Positions 52,712-64,000 of a stretch of DNA of 64,000 nt are shown in pieces (positions within the stretch are counted from its first letter, which is position 1; the number at the start of each line of letters is the position of its first letter). The DNA is from an uncultured Pseudomonadota bacterium (GTDB lineage Bacteria > Vulcanimicrobiota > Vulcanimicrobiia > Eremiobacterales > Eremiobacteraceae): assembly GCA_963781145.1 (NCBI GenBank), contig CAWADW010000005.1:504423-568422 (forward strand), given 5' to 3'. The translations under genes and the position numbers were made by a program. The notes under the pieces are model-generated. The model searched no databases. It worked only from the letters and a program-made list of their open reading frames with translations, and was not told the DNA's origin.

Positions 52712-55700
52712 TTACAGTTTTGTGGACAAACTGAACACGTACGTGCGTACCGGAATCGCTCCACCACCAGCTAGTGCAGCAGAGGCGCCGACGTACGGGA
52801 AGTAGTCATCGCCGTAGTAGGCGTTCGCTGGGTTAGCCGATTTCGCAGCGAAAGCGCCCATCCCAAGCGGCGACAATGCGTAGAACGGATTGTCTGCGTA
52901 GGAGATGATACCCTGACTCGCCGGCTGCTCCCAAGCATAGCCTTGATTGTGAACACCCCAGAGGAGGTTCGTTCCTAGGATCGATGCTTTCAGGTTGTGG
53001 CCGATGTCGTGAGAGATGCCCAAGTTGAGCGCCCACCACGACGGCCCTTTGAAGGCGCCTGGGGCATCGAATTGGCTTGTGTATGGATCTGGCCCCAGCG
53101 CACCCGGCAATGGGGCTGTGCAAGGACTGATCGTGCCGTGCTCGCAGGTAGCGGGCAACGGAGTGCAGCCGGGTGCATTGCCCCCAACCCCGGGCGGGCC
53201 AGCAGCAAAGCAGTGCGCGTCTGAGAAGAGTTGCGGGTCTCCGTACGGGTTGCCGGATTGATAGTTCAACGTCGGTAGAATATCAAATCCATGCTCCCGC
53301 ACATCGAGCCCCACGTTGAGTCACGAATCGCACATCGTACGACGGCGATGCTGGCACCGCCTGATCGTAAGATGGCGAGTAGTACGCGTTCGGATCGAGC
53401 GTCGCGAAGTGTGTGCCGTAGTAGTTGTTGTAGGCGGAGATCTGGCTATTAATTGTGTCGATGTACGATGCTCCGCTCGGACCCTTCCAGAACCTGATCT
53501 TGGAATTGGTGTAGGTCGCGGCTATCACGCCCCCAATGCCGTTCTCACTGGACACATTCTTGCTCAGTAAGAACTCGGCTCCCGAAACGCGCGCATTGCC
53601 GAAGTTGTATCCGGTAACGAAGCTCGGCGATGCGGGATTCACGGGCAAGTTAAGGATCTGGTTTTGCGTATCTCTATAGAACGGCGTGATCTTCATGGAC
53701 AAGCCAGCTGAAAAGTCGTGCTCGACCGATAAGTCGTAGTTCGTGCTGTTTTCGGGTTGCACGTTGTGAACCGTCAAGAACCCCAGGCCATCGTAGAATC
53801 GATTCAGCAGTTGAACCGTGTCGCCCGGTCCCCAGAACGGGGCTTCCCGGTACTCTACGAACGCAGAGTCCGGAGGCTGAACGTAGCGTCCAACTGAGAA
53901 CCGAAGGATGTTGGTTGGATCAAACGTGTACGTGAAGCCGAATCGTGGGCTTATCGCCTCATACGAGATGGAGGTCGGCGGATTGCTCCACCCCCCTGCT
54001 CCCGGTGCATCTTTTGCGCTCAAACCCACGCCGCCAGGATCAGTCCCCGGGGGACTGTTTGGCGTGCTCCCGTTGGTGAGGATCGAGAAGCAGTTCGTTC
54101 CCGCTGGATAGCCGGGGATACTCGGATCGCCTGGCGAGTATGCGAAACCATGCAGGCACTGCCCGTTTTGTTCTTCAGCCATGTATGCTAGACCGTTGAG
54201 ACCGGTGATCTGCATATCGGGCATCAGCACGAAACGGAACTCATCCCAACGCGCTCCGAAGTCGAACAACAGCTTGTCGCTGGGTTTGAACTGGTCGTCG
54301 ATGACACCATCGTAGGTTATAGGCGTCGTGCTCGACCAATATCCGAACGGCGAGCCTACGTAGGTGACGGGGCTGTCCCGCCGTGCATGCCATGCCCACA
54401 CCTCCGCAATTGGGGTGCGTTCCCCAAAAGTTGAATGCCGGCTGGTAATTGTAGCGCAGCGTCAAGTCGCGCGTCCAGTCGGTGTCGATCTTCAGAAGGT
54501 TCTGCGCGTTGAGCTGGTTTTGGTAGTTGAGCGTGACCCCTGTCGCGTTGTCGTGCAGTTGGTAGAATGTGAAACCGACCCAGCCGTTGATTGGCTGGTC
54601 GAGGCTCCAACCCGAAAACAAGTTGTACTCGTACAGGCGCAAGAACGAATTGTCGTTCAGAGCTCGAGTGTAGGACAGCTTTGTAATCGAGTACTGCGTA
54701 TTTTGGCTGTCTTGGAATGTTGGCGGGATCGGGCCGCCAAGGCTGCCACCGGACGTTGGCCAGGTGAGCGGCGTGAGCAGCGCTGGGTTGTATGGTTGCC
54801 CAGCGTTGCCTTTGTAGAACAGACCCGTCGGCCACGTGAGATTCGTCGCCGATTGAAACCGGTGTTGCTCGTGAAGGTCGACACGGTTGGGTCCGAATTG
54901 AATGTGCCTTCTGGGGCATACGGAGCCGACTGGGTCGAACCGACCACATACAGTGCTTGCAGGTCGTCGCTCAGACCATTGTGCTGGAGCGTCCAGTGCA
55001 GATTCGTCACGGTGTCGCGTTGTGCGGTCCACGGAATGTCCGAATACGCGGCCAATGACTGCGGCTGCATCAGGGAGTTGGCCACCGAGCAGTTGAGGAA
55101 ACCGCCGCCTGGCGTTAACCCTGGAATCGTAGAACCAAAGACGTCGTGAGAATTCCAGGCGCCGCAACCAGGATCGTTCGCCGGAACACTGATCGCGGTT
55201 CCCGCCAGGTTGCTCCGGTCGCCGAAGTTGTAGTCGGCGTTCAAAGCCAACGTCGAGACGTAGTAGGTAAACCGATTGTCCGGTGTGCCACCGTAGATGT
55301 CCGCTTGGACTGAGTGGTTGAAGAGCGGTGAGCCGACGATGCCCGTAAAGTCAGCACCGCCTGGATATTTTCCACGCGAAACGACTTCGTTGACATAGCC
55401 GGACATGGCGCGACCCGCATCTGCCGGAGCGCCGCCGGTGTAGACTTCCAAGCTCGAAAGGCCATTCGTCAAACCTGCTGTGGAATTGTAAAAGTCAAAT
55501 CCGCGGTTAAGCGGAATGCCTTCAAGTTCGAATCCGATTTGGTCGAACGAACCGCCGCGCATGGAGAGCGAACCCTGGCCTGCGTAGCCACCGCCCGATC
55601 CAACTTGCCGCACAACGCCCGGCATCGAGCCGACAACGCCGTTTTGGCTATACATCGTCTCTGAGCCGCCTTGCGAACCTTGCAAGTTGGCGATGGCGCG

Positions 55701-56123
55701 CGAGTTGACGGCATAGAGGTCGCCCGTCACCGTCTTACTCACGACGCTCGCAGTTGCAGTGGTCGTAACGTGGCCGATGGTCTTGATGGATTGCCGCATG
55801 TGGATATCTGCGGAGGCTGTTTGGTCAGCCGTAACTGTGATGCCGTAGATGGTTGCGGTGTCGTAACCGTCTTTGCTCCCAGTTATGCTGTAGGTGTCCG
55901 GAGAGAGGTTGAGGATCGAATAGAAACCATTCGACCCGGTCGTTGAACTTTGCGATTGGCTGGGTGACGAAGCCGTCACCTTAGTGCCAGTTAGTGGGTT
56001 GCCATTTTGATCCGTCACCTTGCCCTGAATGTTGCCAGTCGTGCCGGCCAGTGCCCATGTTCCCTGGACGAGCAAAACCGCGACCGTCAGAAGCGCGGTG
56101 CGGAGTAGGCCCTTAGTGGTCAT
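52712..56123 (-). pseudogene. TonB-dependent receptor with N-terminal carboxypeptidase-regulatory-like domain, split by at least 3 frameshifts
   Basis: Strong RBS AAGGAGG + ATG at 56123. Signal peptide, a CarboxypepD_reg-like segment (GNIQGKVTDQNGNPLTGTKVTA...GFYSILNLSPDTYSITGSKDGY), plug and beta-barrel segments spread over ORFs 54657..56198, 54241..55167, 53283..54401 and 52712..53314. Confidence 0.7.
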
Positions 56124-56311
56124 CAAGGGTTTCCTCCTTAAGTGAGTGAGAATGCTTAACCGACGAACCAGCCACTGCGGTCGGCCGAGCCGATGCACGC
56201 GCCGTCGTCCCGATTAAGGTGAGTTTAAGGTTCGAACGGTGACTTCGCACACCTGCTCGCAGCGCGTCTTGCGGGACGGATAAGGGCGACAGCGGACCTA
56301 AAGGTCCGCTG

Positions 56312-60892: not shown

Positions 60893-61510
60893 CTACCTGG
60901 CGGCCCGAAGTTTAACGATCACCGCCACGACCATTAGGGCAAAATAGGCGAGGGTAATGACCTCGGCACGGGCGATAACCCGCCTGTTCCATCCCCCTTG
61001 GCGCTCGTCTCGAGGCAGTGGAGCGGAAAGCGGCACGATTCGCGCGACCGCTTGGCGATAACTTTCAAACTCGCCGCCGAAAGTTTGAGCGAGATACGAT
61101 TCTTCCAGCGGGATGATGGTGGCGTACACGCCTACGATCAAGACAGCAACAACAGCAAACATGAGGAGCGACGTCGCCATCGGCACGTTGCCCGAGAACG
61201 CAAGCCAAAAACCAAGAGCGATGATCGCATTTCCAACGTAGAGTGGGTTGCGCACGAACGCGTATGGTCCGCCAGTCACGAGTTTCGGAGCCGTGACGAC
61301 GTCCGAGCGGGTGGTGACTCCTGAATATCCGACCGCCCAGATTCGGATAAGCTCGCCGAGACCCGCAACGGCAATACCGACGACCGCGCTCCGCAGCGAA
61401 GGCGAGCCGAGTAGCACGAGAACCAGTGCCACGGGAACAAGCAGTAGGCCGCGATTTTTGAAAACCCAGGTTTGCCACTCGCTGGGAGGCGGTGCGTTAA
61501 GCCGCGGCAT
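60893..61510 (-). CDS. isoprenylcysteine carboxyl methyltransferase (ICMT)/PEMT-family membrane methyltransferase
   Basis: Multi-transmembrane protein with GPYAFVRNPLYVGN and the C-terminal EE..L...FG.E...Y motif. Confidence 0.7.
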   Translation of the reverse strand: MPRLNAPPPSEWQTWVFKNRGLLLVPVALVLVLLGSPSLRSAVVGIAVAGLGELIRIWAVGYSGVTTRSDVVTAPKLVTGGPYAFVRNPLYVGNAIIALGFWLAFSGNVPMATSLLMFAVVAVLIVGVYATIIPLEESYLAQTFGGEFESYRQAVARIVPLSAPLPRDERQGGWNRRVIARAEVITLAYFALMVVAVIVKLRAAR

Positions 61511-62456
61511 GAGAAAAATACTCGAGCATATCTGCCAAAGTGCGTTCAATTGGCGTGACGGCCCTCCAGCCCACCTGTCGCTCTATTAATGAGGGGTCGC
61601 CGCGTAGCACGGGCGTTTCTACGGGCCTCACGAGCTCGGGCTTGCGCCGAACCTCAGCTTTGACGCAGGCGATGCGCATCAACTCGCGGACGATCTCCTC
61701 CATGCTCCGATCCTTGCCGCTGCACACGTTATAGACGCAGCCGGTTTCACCAGCTTGCACTAGCCGCAGATATGCATCGACAACATCGCGGACATCGGAA
61801 AAATCGCGTCGTGGCGTGAGATCGCCAACGTCGAGCACGGGTTCTTTCTGCTTCGCCTTGATGGCCGCAATCTGGCTCGCAAACGCGGGGACGGCAAAGG
61901 CCGAACTTTGACCCGGGCCTGTGTGATTGAAAGATCTTGTTGCCATGACGCGACACCAACCGGCGCGCGCGTACTGCAGCGCAATGACCTCGGCCGCGGC
62001 CTTCGACGCGGCATACGGGTTTCGGGGAGAGATCGGAGCATCTTCGCGCAACGGCAGTTGGTCGACGCTTACCGCGCCGTACGTGTCGGACGAGCCCACG
62101 ACGAGCACGGTCGCCTTGGAAGCTTCGGCGCGAACGGCTTCGAGTAAGAACGTCGTCCCCATGACATTCGTTTCGATAGTCGAGAGTGGGTGATCCTGAC
62201 TGGCCGGCACGAAGGATTGCGCGGCCAAGTGAAAGACAACATCCGGTGCGCACGAGCGCGCGAGCGATCGCAGCCCATGTGCATCGGCGATGTCACACGT
62301 GCGCCATACGACGCGCTGCGCGAGCGTTGCGTCAAGCGTCACCAGCGCAGGTTTGGGAGCGCGAATTAAGCCTGTGACCTGCGCATTGTCGCGCAGCAGT
62401 CTACGGAGCAGCCACTGCCCGACAAAGCCGTCGGCACCAGTGACAAGCGCATGCAT
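61497..62456 (-). CDS. rmd: GDP-4-dehydro-6-deoxy-D-mannose reductase (Rmd-like NAD-dependent epimerase/dehydratase)
   Basis: GxxGxxG (VTGADGFVGQWL), YxxxK (YAASKAAAE), FNHTGPGQ; overall collinear with Pseudomonas Rmd. Adjacent to gmd. Confidence 0.75.
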   Translation of the reverse strand: MHALVTGADGFVGQWLLRRLLRDNAQVTGLIRAPKPALVTLDATLAQRVVWRTCDIADAHGLRSLARSCAPDVVFHLAAQSFVPASQDHPLSTIETNVMGTTFLLEAVRAEASKATVLVVGSSDTYGAVSVDQLPLREDAPISPRNPYAASKAAAEVIALQYARAGWCRVMATRSFNHTGPGQSSAFAVPAFASQIAAIKAKQKEPVLDVGDLTPRRDFSDVRDVVDAYLRLVQAGETGCVYNVCSGKDRSMEEIVRELMRIACVKAEVRRKPELVRPVETPVLRGDPSLIERQVGWRAVTPIERTLADMLEYFSHAAA

Positions 62457-64000
62457 TAGGCAGTGTTTCGTCGATGTCGCTCGAGGTCGGCCTCGACCAT
62501 CTTTCCTATCATGTCCTCAAAACCGACGGTTGGCGCCCAACCAAGTTTGTGCTTCGCCTTCGAAGCGTCGCCGACGAGCACGTCAACCTCGGCTGGGCGA
62601 ATGAACTTCGGATCCGGCACGACGTGTGTGCGCCAATCGAGGCCCACGCATTGAAAAGCGACTTCGACAAGCTCGCGCACGGTGCGCGTCACACCTGTGG
62701 CGATCACGTAGTCGTCCGGCCGCTCTTGCTGCAGCATAAGCCACATGGCCCGCACATAGTCGGGCGCATAGCCCCAATCGCGTCGCGCGTCGAGGTTGCC
62801 CATGTGTACGTCCTTGGCTTTGCCGAGCTTGATGCGCGCAGCCGCATCGGTGATCTTGCGAGTCACAAACTCCAAACCTCGCCGCGGTGAATTGTGAATG
62901 ACCCACTCGCCCACGCCGGCATGAAATCGCCCAGAGGTGGTGGTGAGATCGTAGAGCCATCCATCATAATCAGGGAGCGGAACAACCTTTTTGACCTCAG
63001 CGCGGTCGCGCCGAAGATGCGCGCCCTTGCCTGTGATCATCGGCGTCCGAAGGTTGATGGAATAAAAGGGACCCGGTCTTTCCCGCGGGCCTATATCGAG
63101 GTTGAGGACTGGCTCTTGGCCGAGTGCTTTGCTTGCGAGCCACCAAAGCCCCATGGCAAGAACGGGAGAATTCGTTTTGAAATTCTTAAAAGGATACCGT
63201 GGGCTGCCAGCCTTGAGGCCATCGGTCGCGTTGTATCCTTCGAGGAAGTGAACCCATGTTTGCTCGTCGCCATTCAAAACTATGGTGGGCACCCGTTTGT
63301 GACCGCTGTGCGTGTAGCACATCTCGTGCAGCCACGACGTAAAAGCGGCGTTGCCGTTGAGCGCCAGCGCCCCAACGGTTGCGCCGATATGAAATCCTGA
63401 GGCGGTGGCACTTTCGGTAGCCCAACCACAAGCGACCTGACGCCATACTTCCTCGAACCGCCGGCGGAGGGCGACGTCGTTGTTGGTAAATCTGGCCGCC
63501 ACGCGCCCGCCGGACATATAAGCAGAGCCATCACCAACAAACGCGCCGAGAAGCCATGCGAGTTCAGGTCTGATTTTGGTGACGTTTGGGGAGCACGGCA
63601 GGGAGGCTTGCAGGACACGATCGCCAGGGGCAACCAGCGCCGCCGGGCGCTCGTCTTGCGCCAGGAACACGACATGATCCGCCGTTGTGGTGATCGTTCC
63701 ACAACGGGCTTCGATTCTTGTGACCCCCTTATTGCGTTTCAAAGGAGCATGATGGTAGGCAGTTCCCTGCAGCACGTCAACAAATCGCTCGCCATCCCAC
63801 ACTTCGAGATCTTCCACGTCAAAGCGCTGGTAGGCGGGTCCTTTCGGGCGAGCATGAAGAACTTCGTCGATGGAAACGACATCGATGAGGCCGCGCCGTC
63901 GAATGATGACGGGTGTACGGCCTGGGATGCTTTCGTGGTTAAACAGGATTCCGGAGCACGCAAACAAGCCGTAGGACTCGCGATAGTTGACCGTGATCCA
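62456..64000 (-). CDS. gmd: GDP-mannose 4,6-dehydratase, intein-containing, 5' end beyond the window
   Basis: Extein N-part ...[23 protein letters not shown], then a 347-aa insert, then [14 protein letters not shown]...[22 protein letters not shown]. The extein segments are collinear with E. coli Gmd (...NHESPRRGETFVTRKIT...). Confidence 0.85.
62891..63931 (-). mobile_element. intein (347 aa) with LAGLIDADG homing-endonuclease domain, inserted between NHE and SPRRG of Gmd
   Basis: Ser1 ([10 protein letters not shown] = block A), block [13 protein letters not shown] (TxxH), LAGLIDADG motifs [15 protein letters not shown] and [12 protein letters not shown], block [17 protein letters not shown], terminal VIHN followed by a +1 Ser. 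Confidence 0.8.

What the first reader, a model, noticed from the sequence alone, without database searches (positions are those of the whole stretch)
62891..63931. LAGLIDADG intein interrupting GDP-mannose 4,6-dehydratase at the conserved NHE|S motif
The Gmd reading frame carries a 347-aa in-frame insertion. It sits between ...GILFNHE and [14 protein letters not shown], residues that are contiguous in canonical Gmd (E. coli ...NHESPRRGETFVTRKIT). The insertion has every class-1 intein hallmark:
- an N-terminal Ser in a block A-like [10 protein letters not shown];
- a block B TxxH (TTTADH);
- two LAGLIDADG motifs ([20 protein letters not shown]);
- block F (LYDLTTT..FHAG);
- a C-terminal His-Asn followed by a +1 Ser.
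Inteins in nucleotide-sugar dehydratases are uncommon, and this one lies in the substrate/cofactor-binding core. Mature Gmd, and hence GDP-D-rhamnose synthesis through the adjacent rmd, would depend on protein splicing. The homing endonuclease appears full-length and so may still be active.
Basis: partly seen in the sequence, partly recalled or inferred. Interest (0 to 1): 0.8.

Follow-up and report, generated by a model that had tools for sequence, protein, structure and literature searches.

The report
Self-splicing intein inside a sugar-dehydratase gene
The GDP-mannose 4,6-dehydratase gene at the end of this window really is interrupted by a 347-residue self-splicing protein element (an intein with a built-in homing endonuclease); it is an ordinary kind of element in a host gene where I found no published description, and relatives are common in metagenomes and viral contigs.

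Summary
On the minus strand, 62891..63931 (1041 nt, 347 codons) is an in-frame insertion in gmd between ...GILFNHE and [14 protein letters not shown]. The spliced flanks align without a gap to solved Gmd structures (1rpn, E 1.7e-70).

The insert is a class-1 intein carrying a two-motif LAGLIDADG homing endonuclease:
- All splicing residues are present: Ser1, T83xxH86, D328, H346-N347, and Ser+1.
- The AlphaFold model (pLDDT 91.8) matches the TliVMA intein, PI-PkoII, PI-PfuI and PI-SceI (Foldseek E 1e-17 to 1e-8).
- A profile of the intein family hits PI-PkoII and TliVMA by sequence (E 1e-10 and 1e-9).

Pfam and NCBIfam models miss it with the single sequence.

All 44 close homologues sit at the same Gmd site, mostly in Eremiobacterota MAGs. 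A profile search adds more than 45 further Gmd clusters at 50% identity. It also finds 41 viral contigs, Gmds with two inteins, and Rmd-like reductases hit in the homologous loop. Intein-free alleles are interleaved with intein-bearing ones.

Splicing and endonuclease activity are inferred, not shown. The N-terminal 156 residues of Gmd lie outside the window. No paper describing a Gmd intein was found. Verdict: a new member of a known kind, of moderate interest.

The parts
63932..64000 (-). End of the gmd N-extein ([23 protein letters not shown]). The gene continues beyond the window edge.
   Evidence: Translation. Pfam GDP_Man_Dehyd covers it. The full N-extein of 179 aa, with GITGQDG, SSSE and YGVAK, is seen in the near-identical contig L010.
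62891..63931 (-). Intein: 347 aa, from Ser1 to His346-Asn347.
   Evidence: Exact boundaries. AF2 pLDDT 91.8, pTM 0.91. Foldseek hits: 7qsu TliVMA intein E 1.8e-17, 2cw7 PI-PkoII 7.7e-15, 1dq3 PI-PfuI 8.4e-13, PI-SceI 6e-9. Family profile against PDB sequences.
63902..63931 (-). Block A: [10 protein letters not shown], with the Ser1 nucleophile.
   Evidence: All 11 close homologues with a visible N-junction also start with Ser. Wider family members have Cys, Ser or Thr at this position.
63674..63691 (-). Block B: TTTADH (the TxxH motif is T83...H86).
   Evidence: T83 and H86 are invariant in alignment A3.
63017..63586 (-). LAGLIDADG homing-endonuclease domain, roughly residues 116-305. The boundary is approximate, taken from the model's secondary structure.
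   Evidence: The secondary structure alternates helices and beta-hairpins. Fold matches to I-SceI, I-DmoI and the WhiA LAGLIDADG domains, as well as to intein endonucleases. pN 0.16-0.24 against saturated pS of about 0.65-0.78.
63524..63553 (-). LAGLIDADG motif 1: [10 protein letters not shown], with acidic residue D134.
   Evidence: L128, G129 and G135 are invariant. Position 134 is Asp or Glu across the family.
63218..63247 (-). LAGLIDADG motif 2: [10 protein letters not shown], with acidic residue D237.
   Evidence: F229, L230, G232, D237 and G238 are invariant.
62891..62959 (-). Blocks F and G: [15 protein letters not shown] and VGEWVIHN.
   Evidence: W325, D328, T331, F336, G339, G341, H346 and N347 are invariant. 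This stretch aligns to the C-termini of the TFIIB, PI-PkoII and TliVMA inteins.
62456..62890 (-). gmd C-extein (Ser+1, then [13 protein letters not shown]... to the end; 144 aa) plus the TAA stop at 62456..62458.
   Evidence: Pfam GDP_Man_Dehyd profile positions 173-332. Ungapped alignment to 1rpn and 1n7g across the junction.
61497..62456 (-). Downstream rmd-like gene (GDP-6-deoxy-D-lyxo-4-hexulose reductase homologue). Its ATG overlaps the gmd stop by one base (TAATG).
   Evidence: 2pk3 E 7.5e-64 and 6x3b E 6.8e-56. The same gmd-rmd arrangement occurs in L001, L003, L009 and L010.

Best explanation
A class-1 (standard four-step) intein with an embedded two-motif LAGLIDADG homing endonuclease sits in the chromosomal gmd gene of a bacterium that is probably a member of Eremiobacterota/Vulcanimicrobiota. 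The insertion lies between Glu179 and Ser of the conserved NHE|SPRRG loop.

The gene is translated as a 670-aa, 74.6-kDa precursor. The inferred splicing steps are:
1. Ser1 performs an N-O acyl shift, assisted by the block-B residues T83 and H86.
2. The ester is transferred to Ser+1.
3. Asn347 cyclises, assisted by H346 and the block-F residue D328.
4. An O-N shift then gives a 36.3-kDa Gmd with a native NHESPRRG loop and a free 38.3-kDa intein.

The insertion lies three residues before the second Arg of SPRRG. A published analysis of a Burkholderia Gmd calls that residue (Arg190 in its numbering; the mapping onto this sequence is mine) essential for orienting substrate and NADP+. The unspliced precursor should therefore be inactive. 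Production of GDP-4-keto-6-deoxy-mannose, and of GDP-D-rhamnose through the translationally coupled rmd, should then depend on splicing.

The free intein is inferred to act as a homing endonuclease. It would cut intein-free gmd alleles around TTTAACCACGAA|TCACCGCGGCGAGG and spread by repair-mediated copying.

What is shown: the anatomy, the fold, conservation of the catalytic residues, purifying selection, allelic occupancy of one site in several phyla and in viruses, and interleaved intein-free alleles. What is inferred: actual splicing, endonuclease activity and the target site.
For: Reading frame and boundaries:
- The frame is open and the boundaries are exact.
- The spliced flanks align without a gap to Gmd structures: 1rpn E 1.7e-70, 1n7g E 3.6e-66.

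Intein identity:
- Splicing residues T83, H86, D328, H346 and N347, and the LAGLIDADG residues, are invariant in the family alignment. Position 1 is Ser in all close homologues with a visible N-junction, and Ser follows the terminal Asn in the aligned members that retain a C-extein.
- The AF2 model has pLDDT 91.8. The top 16 PDB matches are inteins, and LAGLIDADG enzymes follow.
- The family profile hits PI-PkoII at 1.6e-10, the TliVMA intein at 1e-9, and TFIIB mini-inteins at 1.3e-7 in both Hint halves.

Distribution:
- All 44 homologues found by sequence are Gmd proteins with the insert at the same site. Sources include Vulcanimicrobiaceae/Eremiobacteraceae, Anaeromyxobacter and Nitriliruptorales MAGs and a marine-sediment metagenome.
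- Full-length precursors with intact Rossmann and catalytic motifs exist in L001, L003 and L010.
- Closest intein-free alleles (79-81% extein identity; 79-82% by BLASTP) cluster with intein-bearing ones.
- 41 viral contigs carry the family.

Selection:
- Non-synonymous divergence is 0.16-0.24 in the Hint-N, endonuclease and Hint-C parts, against synonymous differences of about 0.6-0.85.

Host gene function:
- PMC3584063 states the role of the conserved Arg.
- The Rmd assignment rests.
Against: - No curated profile reaches threshold on this sequence. Pfam Intein_splicing is absent, LAGLIDADG_3 scores 18 bits against a cutoff of 22.5, and the NCBIfam intein-containing models give only E 1e-3 to 0.1.
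- Single-sequence phmmer against PDB is not significant (E 0.1).
- There is no experimental evidence of splicing or DNA cleavage for any family member.
- Synonymous sites are saturated, so dN/dS is only bounded, not measured.
- The presence/absence tree is neighbour-joining on about 163 residues without support values.
- The gene is truncated in the window itself.
- The intein diverges at about the same rate as the exteins within Eremiobacterota (76% against 81% identity to L001). That fits long vertical inheritance as well as it fits recent homing.
Confidence: 0.88

Rival explanations
1. The element is a splicing-competent intein, but its endonuclease is no longer a mobile-element nuclease. 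It may be inactive, or kept for structural reasons or for some host-beneficial role. In that case the element persists in this lineage by vertical inheritance only.
For: - Within Eremiobacterota the intein and the exteins have diverged by similar amounts: 76% against 81% identity to L001, with pN 0.165 against 0.124.
- GC content is close to that of the host gene, 0.582 against 0.599.
- All clade members keep the same 346-348 aa length.
Against: - The metal-binding acidic residue is kept in both LAGLIDADG motifs, and D237 is invariant.
- The endonuclease domain is constrained as strongly as the Hint domain.
- Intein-free alleles are interleaved with intein-bearing ones.
- The same site is occupied in distant phyla and in viruses. 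This is the pattern expected from ongoing homing.
Confidence: 0.3
2. The intein is a conditional, regulatory splicing switch. Splicing is tuned by an environmental signal, so that Gmd activity and GDP-rhamnose supply are controlled after translation.
For: - The insertion lies next to the substrate/cofactor-orienting Arg, so the precursor should be inactive.
- The element is retained for a long time under purifying selection.
Against: - The junction nucleophiles are Ser1 and Ser+1, so the known redox (disulfide) switches do not apply.
- Nothing in the sequence or its neighbourhood points to a sensor.
- Insertion at a conserved active-site loop is the general rule for selfish inteins (review PMC7765530) and needs no regulatory explanation.
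Confidence: 0.08
3. The insert is non-splicing, or the gene is dead. This would be a decayed intein or a fixed domain insertion that leaves gmd non-functional, or two separate genes fused by chance in frame.
For: - Some relatives look frameshifted: P0008 on a 101-kb contig and P0014 on a 2.3-Mb contig.
- Curated intein HMMs do not reach threshold.
Against: - The frame is uninterrupted for 515 codons.
- Every catalytic splicing residue is conserved.
- The exteins are under strong purifying selection, with pN 0.12-0.19 against saturated pS.
- gmd remains translationally coupled to rmd.
- The flanks are the two halves of a single Gmd domain, contiguous to the residue. Neither half could fold alone.
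Confidence: 0.03

Closest known systems
Archaeal intein homing endonucleases: Thermococcus litoralis VMA intein (7qss/7qsu), PI-PkoII (2cw7), PI-PfuI (1dq3)
   Same: - A Hint splicing domain split by a two-motif LAGLIDADG endonuclease.
- These are the best fold matches (E 1.8e-17 to 8e-13) and the best profile-sequence matches (1.6e-10 and 1e-9).
- Same block B, F and G residues, with a terminal His-Asn.
   Different: - The hosts are a V-ATPase subunit, DNA polymerase and ribonucleotide reductase in hyperthermophilic archaea. Here the host is a bacterial NADP-dependent sugar-nucleotide dehydratase.
- Sequence identity is only 11-18%.
- This intein is smaller (347 aa) and shows no separate DNA-recognition region or stirrup domain in the model.
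- The nucleophiles are Ser1/Ser+1, whereas the TliVMA intein has Cys1 (its crystal structures are C1A mutants).
PI-SceI (yeast VMA1 intein)
   Same: It is the paradigm intein with an embedded LAGLIDADG endonuclease, shown experimentally to splice and to home. There is a significant fold match (E 6e-9).
   Different: - Eukaryotic host gene.
- 454 aa, with an extra DNA-recognition region.
- Cys1/Cys+1.
- The sequence-profile match is not significant (E 0.27).
Archaeal UDP-glucose/GDP-mannose dehydrogenase (UDP-GlcDH) inteins listed by Novikova et al. 2016 (PMC4760082)
   Same: An intein in a nucleotide-sugar-modifying, dinucleotide-binding enzyme. This is the nearest published precedent by host function that I found.
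   Different: - The host enzyme family is different (a COG1004 dehydrogenase, not an extended-SDR 4,6-dehydratase).
- The domain of life is different (Euryarchaeota).
- No sequence relationship to this intein was tested.
Other members of the same, apparently undescribed, intein family found here
   Same: - Same insertion point, NHE|X...N|S(P/E/A)RRG, in Gmd of several bacterial phyla, phage-sized viral contigs and giant-virus MAGs.
- Related inteins occupy the homologous loop FNH|S...HN|TGPRRG of Rmd-like reductases.
   Different: - Most wider members use Cys1, and many viral ones use Thr1, rather than Ser1.
- Some have Gly, Ala or Ser instead of the penultimate His.
- Some carry an extra insert of about 45 aa that looks like a helix-turn-helix (P0027, P0032, P0037).
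- Some Gmds carry a second intein in the catalytic YQAS|SSEMFG motif.

Membership tests
Class 1 intein (Hint-domain protein-splicing element) | An in-frame insertion at a conserved site of a host protein, with flanks that are contiguous in intein-free homologues. | tested here: met
   The spliced flanks align without a gap to 1rpn, 1n7g and 2z1m across the E|S junction. Intein-free alleles at 79-82% identity read NHES(P/A/E/K)RRG.
Class 1 intein (Hint-domain protein-splicing element) | A nucleophile (Cys or Ser) at intein position 1 and Cys, Ser or Thr at +1. | tested here: met
   Ser1 (AGC at 63929..63931) and Ser+1 (TCA at 62888..62890). Ser1 is present in 11 of 11 close homologues with a visible N-junction.
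Class 1 intein (Hint-domain protein-splicing element) | Block B TxxH, a block F Asp, and block G His-Asn at the C-terminus. | tested here: met
   T83, H86, D328, H346 and N347 are invariant in the 12-sequence intein-only alignment A3.
Class 1 intein (Hint-domain protein-splicing element) | The Hint (horseshoe beta) fold. | tested here: met
   AF2 model with pLDDT 91.8. Foldseek matches full inteins and also mini-inteins: TFIIB 5o9i E 5e-7, VidaL 6vgv, Ssp DnaB 6frg, Npu DnaB 4o1r.
Class 1 intein (Hint-domain protein-splicing element) | A match to curated intein profiles above threshold (Pfam Intein_splicing PF14890, or NCBIfam intein-containing models). | tested here: not met
   There is no PF14890 hit. 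NCBIfam intein-containing RFC, DnaB and RecA models give E 1e-3 to 0.02, far below their cutoffs. This is a sensitivity limit of the models rather than a defining biological feature. The family's own profile reaches solved inteins at E 1e-10.
Class 1 intein (Hint-domain protein-splicing element) | Autocatalytic excision with ligation of the exteins. | not testable with these tools
   This needs expression and mass analysis. The expected species are 74.6 kDa converting to 36.3 kDa plus 38.3 kDa.
LAGLIDADG homing endonuclease (single-chain, two-motif) | Two LAGLIDADG helices, each ending in an acidic residue followed by Gly. | tested here: met
   LLGAFVGD134G and FLEGYNATD237G. D237 and G238 are invariant, and position 134 is Asp or Glu. 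Pfam LAGLIDADG_3 is sub-threshold here at 18 bits, but above threshold in the family members P0165 and P0172.
LAGLIDADG homing endonuclease (single-chain, two-motif) | A pseudo-symmetric alpha-beta-beta-alpha-beta-beta-alpha fold, present twice. | tested here: met
   The order of secondary-structure elements in the model. Foldseek matches to I-SceI (3oor, E 1e-5), I-DmoI (1b24, E 6e-5) and the WhiA LAGLIDADG domain.
LAGLIDADG homing endonuclease (single-chain, two-motif) | Site-specific cleavage of the intein-free allele, and homing. | not testable with these tools
   There are only indirect signs: interleaved intein-bearing and intein-free alleles, the same site occupied across phyla and viruses, and purifying selection on the domain.
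GDP-mannose 4,6-dehydratase (Gmd, TIGR01472 / PF16363) | A full-length extended-SDR with GxxGxxG, catalytic S/T..E and YxxxK, and the NHESPRRG loop. | tested here: met
   In the window: PF16363 E 5e-57, and TIGR01472 at 220.6 bits. That is below the 415-bit cutoff because the gene is truncated and interrupted. In near-identical L010, the spliced protein is 323 aa with GITGQDG at 9, SSSE at 123 and YGVAK at 148.
Class 3 intein (WCT triplet, block-F Cys nucleophile) | No position-1 nucleophile; Trp in block B, Cys at F:4 and Thr at G:5. | tested here: not met
   Position 1 is Ser and F:4 is Asp328, not Cys. The definition is taken from PMC2807308.

The most novel reading that the evidence does not exclude
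This may be the chromosomal, Ser1 branch of a large intein family that has not been described and is specific to GDP-sugar extended-SDR enzymes. The family:
- occupies the NHE|S loop of Gmd in several bacterial phyla;
- occupies the homologous loop of Rmd-like reductases;
- co-occurs in some Gmds with a second intein in the catalytic SSE motif;
- is abundant in phage-sized and giant-virus contigs, which would be its vectors between phyla.

Many viral members appear to start with Thr. In 2010 that position-1 nucleophile was reported as never seen in natural inteins (PMC2807308).
Probability: 0.5. Interest if true: 0.5.

Novelty: new member of a known kind. Interest (0 to 1): 0.4.

Why it matters
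Published intein surveys stress replication, recombination and ATP-binding proteins (PMC4760082). A well-conserved intein allele in a cell-envelope sugar-nucleotide enzyme widens the list of known hosts. It also makes a surface-glycan pathway (GDP-D-rhamnose, and probably other 6-deoxyhexoses) depend on protein splicing.

The family is missed by the Pfam and NCBIfam models tested here. The source annotations on the hits call them plain GDP-mannose 4,6-dehydratase or hypothetical protein, with no mention of an intein. A family profile would therefore improve annotation.

The family's presence in both cellular and viral gmd genes gives a concrete system for studying virus-mediated intein transfer. 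The Ser1/Ser+1 form, and the apparent Thr1 forms, offer cysteine-free splicing domains of possible use in protein engineering.

For this particular window, however, the element is a standard intein doing what inteins normally do.

Tried and rejected
1. Single-sequence profile scans (Pfam, NCBIfam) and phmmer against PDB gave only sub-threshold hints. I replaced them with a family profile and fold comparison.

2. I considered that the Pro-to-Ala/Glu/Lys changes at extein position +2 mark endonuclease-resistant alleles or footprints of intein loss. They occur in three of the four closest intein-free alleles. I rejected this because SERRG and SARRG also occur in intein-bearing Gmds. The variation is therefore ordinary.

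3. Base composition as a sign of recent import is weak. Intein GC is 0.582 and GC3 0.617; extein GC is 0.599 and GC3 0.719. No conclusion was drawn.

4. Precise dN/dS could not be obtained. Synonymous sites are saturated in every available pair, so only pN against pS is reported.

5. The Foldseek search against afdb50 was unavailable.

6. Nine literature searches found no description of a Gmd intein or of an intein in Eremiobacterota (intein with GDP-mannose, Gmd, dehydratase, Eremiobacterota, giant viruses). The supplements of Novikova et al. were not held. InBase could not be consulted. 'Undescribed' is therefore provisional.

7. A class 3 intein was excluded on defining residues. A bacterial intein-like (BIL) domain was considered only briefly: the insert has a +1 nucleophile and an embedded endonuclease, and the BIL structure 2lwy is only a weak fold match (E 0.03). 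A group I intron or two adjacent genes are excluded by the continuous reading frame.
Full report
**1. What is in the sequence**

The finding's coordinates are exact, but the gene lies on the minus strand and runs off the window. Translating 64000..62456 on the minus strand gives an open frame of 514 codons plus a TAA stop.
- It begins [23 protein letters not shown].
- It continues with a 347-residue insert, [10 protein letters not shown]...GVGEWVIHN.
- It ends [14 protein letters not shown]...RRNTA.

The insert is 62891..63931, 1041 nt.

Pfam GDP_Man_Dehyd matches both flanks (E 5e-57, two stretches). The stretch after the insert resumes at profile position 173. Joining the flanks gives a 167-aa sequence that aligns without any gap across the E|S junction to:
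- P. aeruginosa Gmd 1rpn (E 1.7e-70),
- A. thaliana MUR1 1n7g (3.6e-66),
- and other Gmd structures.

The window holds only the last 23 residues of the N-extein. An exact-protein look-up of the downstream gene retrieved a 759-kb metagenomic contig, ENA ERZ25039506 contig_25187 (L010). Across the gmd gene L010 is nearly identical to the window. The precursor differs by a single residue, an L-to-Q change inside the intein. L010 supplies the complete gene: a 670-aa precursor with a 179-aa N-extein, the 347-aa intein and a 144-aa C-extein. The spliced 323-aa protein has the Rossmann motif GITGQDG, the catalytic SSSE and YGVAK.

**2. What the insert is**

Curated models do not settle the question:
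- Pfam gives only LAGLIDADG_3 at 18 bits (cutoff 22.5) and no Intein_splicing hit.
- NCBIfam gives weak hits (E 1e-3 to 0.1), all to intein-containing RFC, DnaB, RecA and RpoA'' models.
- phmmer against PDB gives E 0.1 to PI-PkoII.

Stronger evidence came from three directions.

(a) Close homologues. A search of the 5.8-billion-protein collection found 44 homologues of the insert. Every one is a Gmd carrying the insert at the same point. An intein-only alignment of 12 members (A3) has these invariant residues: T83 and H86 (block B TxxH), D328 (block F), H346-N347 (block G), and the core of both LAGLIDADG motifs including D237-G238. Position 134 is Asp or Glu.

(b) Family profile. A profile built from A3 hits solved inteins by sequence:
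- PI-PkoII at 1.6e-10,
- the T. litoralis VMA intein at 1e-9,
- the TFIIB mini-inteins at 1.3e-7 and 6e-6, the former matching in both Hint halves.

(c) Fold. AlphaFold2 with the family alignment gives a confident model (pLDDT 91.8, pTM 0.91). Foldseek against the PDB returns intein homing endonucleases first: 7qsu at 1.8e-17, 7qss, 2cw7, 1dq3, then PI-SceI. Mini-inteins and free LAGLIDADG enzymes (I-SceI, I-DmoI) and WhiA follow.

The element is therefore a class-1 intein with an embedded single-chain LAGLIDADG endonuclease. Class 3 is excluded because position 1 is Ser and F:4 is Asp.

**3. Context**

The gmd stop overlaps the ATG of the next gene (TAATG at 62454..62458). That gene's best solved relatives are GDP-6-deoxy-D-lyxo-4-hexulose reductase, Rmd (2pk3, E 7.5e-64), and GDP-6-deoxy-D-mannose reductase (6x3b). 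A PEMT/ICMT-like membrane methyltransferase follows. Beyond it are housekeeping genes: 3-hydroxyacyl-CoA dehydrogenase, acyl-CoA dehydrogenase, sucCD and a TonB-dependent receptor. This is a chromosomal setting.

The gmd(intein)-rmd arrangement recurs in MAGs labelled Vulcanimicrobiota and Eremiobacteraceae, and in one labelled 'Proteobacteria' (L001-L004). The window's organism is therefore probably an Eremiobacterota member. This is an inference.

**4. Position in the enzyme**

The insertion is between Glu and Ser of NHE|SPRRG. A study of Burkholderia Gmd (PMC3584063) lists a conserved Arg (Arg190 in its numbering). It describes this residue as fundamental for orienting GDP-mannose and NADP+. 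Counting from the YxxxK motif, I map it to the second Arg of SPRRG, three residues after the splice site. A 38-kDa domain in this loop should prevent formation of the active site, so activity should require splicing. This is an inference.

**5. Is it maintained, and is it mobile?**

I compared the window with L001 and L003.
- Synonymous differences are saturated (pS 0.58-0.85).
- Non-synonymous differences are 0.16-0.24 in the intein as a whole. Values are similar in the Hint-N, endonuclease and Hint-C parts, and compare with 0.12-0.19 in the exteins.
- All parts, including the endonuclease, are therefore under purifying selection.

The closest intein-free Gmds (P0045-P0048, 79-81% extein identity) are as close to the window as the closest intein-bearing one (L001, 81%). 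They cluster with the window and L001 in a crude neighbour-joining tree. Their contigs have the same overlapping downstream gene. This presence/absence pattern among close alleles is what a homing element produces. However, the tree is short and has no support values.

The DNA of the empty sites gives a predicted target of about TTYAACCACGAR|TCNCCNCGNCGNGG.

**6. The wider family**

A profile search of 1.84 billion cluster representatives found 5436 proteins at E <= 1e-3 and 245 at E <= 1e-30. Among the best 150:
- At least 45 to 60 are Gmds with an intein at this same point, NHE|[C/S/T]...[H/G/A/S]N|S[P/E/A]RRG.
- Two (P0172, P0202) are Gmds with two inteins. The second lies in the catalytic YQAS|SSEMFG motif and is recognised by Pfam Intein_splicing.
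- Four are Rmd-like reductases with a related intein in the homologous loop, FNH|S...HN|TGPRRG. The spliced P0207 matches 2pk3 at E 4.6e-82 and is contiguous across the junction.
- More distant relatives sit in a family B DNA polymerase and a subtilase.

A scan of IMG/VR found 41 viral contigs with the family, including giant-virus MAGs and contigs of 50-470 kb. Most are in viral gmd at the same site, and four are in the Rmd-like gene.

The position-1 residue varies by group:
- Ser in all 11 close Eremiobacterota-type homologues.
- Cys 24, Ser 9, Thr 8 among the cluster representatives.
- Thr 17, Cys 12, Ser 3 among the viral loci.

Tori et al. (PMC2807308) wrote that Thr1 had not been observed in natural inteins as of InBase 2009, although an S1T mutant splices.

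**7. Comparison with what is known, and novelty**

In mechanism and architecture this is a standard intein homing endonuclease of the PI-PkoII, TliVMA or PI-SceI type. What differs is the host gene and the insertion site.

Nine full-text searches found no description of a Gmd intein. The nearest published host by function is the archaeal UDP-glucose/GDP-mannose dehydrogenase intein listed by Novikova et al.. No NCBIfam model tested here represents an intein-containing Gmd, and source annotations call these proteins plain Gmd or hypothetical. I could not consult InBase or the paper's supplements, so 'undescribed' is provisional.

I class this as a new member (a new allele and host) of a known kind, of moderate interest. 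Its claim that such inteins are uncommon holds for the literature I could search, but not for raw sequence data.

**8. Shown versus inferred**

Shown:
- boundaries,
- contiguity of the exteins,
- the intein/LAGLIDADG fold and residues,
- family-wide conservation,
- purifying selection,
- distribution.

Inferred:
- that the precursor splices,
- that the precursor is inactive,
- that the endonuclease cuts the empty site,
- that viruses move the element between hosts.

Noticed in passing
Related proteins P0166, P0173-P0176, P0195, P0205, P0288; viral loci L012, L016, L018, L019, L022-L026, L030-L035, L040, L044 (intein N-junction): Many family members, and the largest group of the viral ones (17 of 34 visible N-junctions across the 41 loci), have Thr at intein position 1 (NHE|T...), in register with Ser1/Cys1 of the others. 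A 2010 paper (PMC2807308) said Thr1 had not been seen in natural inteins.
   Followed up: partly
P0172 (1087 aa) and P0202 (1043 aa): These Gmd proteins carry two inteins. One is at the NHE|S site. The second is inside the catalytic motif (YQAS|S...HN|SSEMFG), so Gmd has at least two intein insertion sites.
   Followed up: partly
P0207, P0211, P0223, P0239; viral loci L038, L045, L047, L048: A related intein (E about 1e-64 to the Gmd-intein profile) sits in the homologous loop (FNH|S...HN|TGPRRG) of an Rmd-like GDP-sugar reductase. The family has therefore colonised two paralogous SDR genes of the same pathway.
   Followed up: partly
L012-L052 (IMG/VR contigs, including GVMAG giant-virus bins and contigs up to 473 kb); H1 = LR756508.1, an uncultured phage of 484 kb: The intein family is common in viral contigs, mostly in viral gmd. 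Viruses are candidate vectors for its spread between phyla. The flanking viral genes were not examined.
   Followed up: partly
P0027, P0032, P0037 (alignment A1, columns about 517-562): These members carry an extra insert of about 45 residues between the endonuclease domain and block F (...GLSQRGIHRETGISRGFIRKV...). It looks like a helix-turn-helix and may add DNA binding.
   Followed up: no
P0046, P0047, P0048 (loci L008, L006, L009), extein position +2: Three of the four closest intein-free Gmd alleles have SARRG, SERRG or SKRRG instead of the usual SPRRG (108 of the 120 nearest have Pro). L006 also uses AGC rather than TCN for the Ser codon. The same substitutions occur in intein-bearing alleles, so they are probably ordinary variation.
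   Followed up: yes
P0008 (101-kb contig) and P0014 (2.29-Mb contig): Two gmd-intein homologues look frameshifted near the N-junction and near block F. They could be decaying copies or indel errors from long-read assembly.
   Followed up: no
window 53283..56198 (-): A TonB-dependent receptor appears as two overlapping ORFs: a CarboxypepD_reg N-terminal part at 54657..56198 and a beta-barrel part at 53283..54401. L010 also has two gene calls there (444 aa and 703 aa). This may be a frameshift or a genuinely split arrangement.
   Followed up: no
window 63636..63638 (-), intein residue 99, compared with L010: There is a single amino-acid difference (Leu in the window, Gln in L010) inside the intein between two otherwise near-identical assemblies. 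Further downstream the two sequences differ by an indel about 3 kb from the window end. They represent closely related strains or populations.
   Followed up: partly
L001 (JAJPHJ010000055.1): The closest genome hit (76% intein identity, same gmd-rmd synteny) is labelled 'Proteobacteria bacterium'. All other close hits are Vulcanimicrobiota or Eremiobacteraceae, so the MAG may be mislabelled.
   Followed up: no
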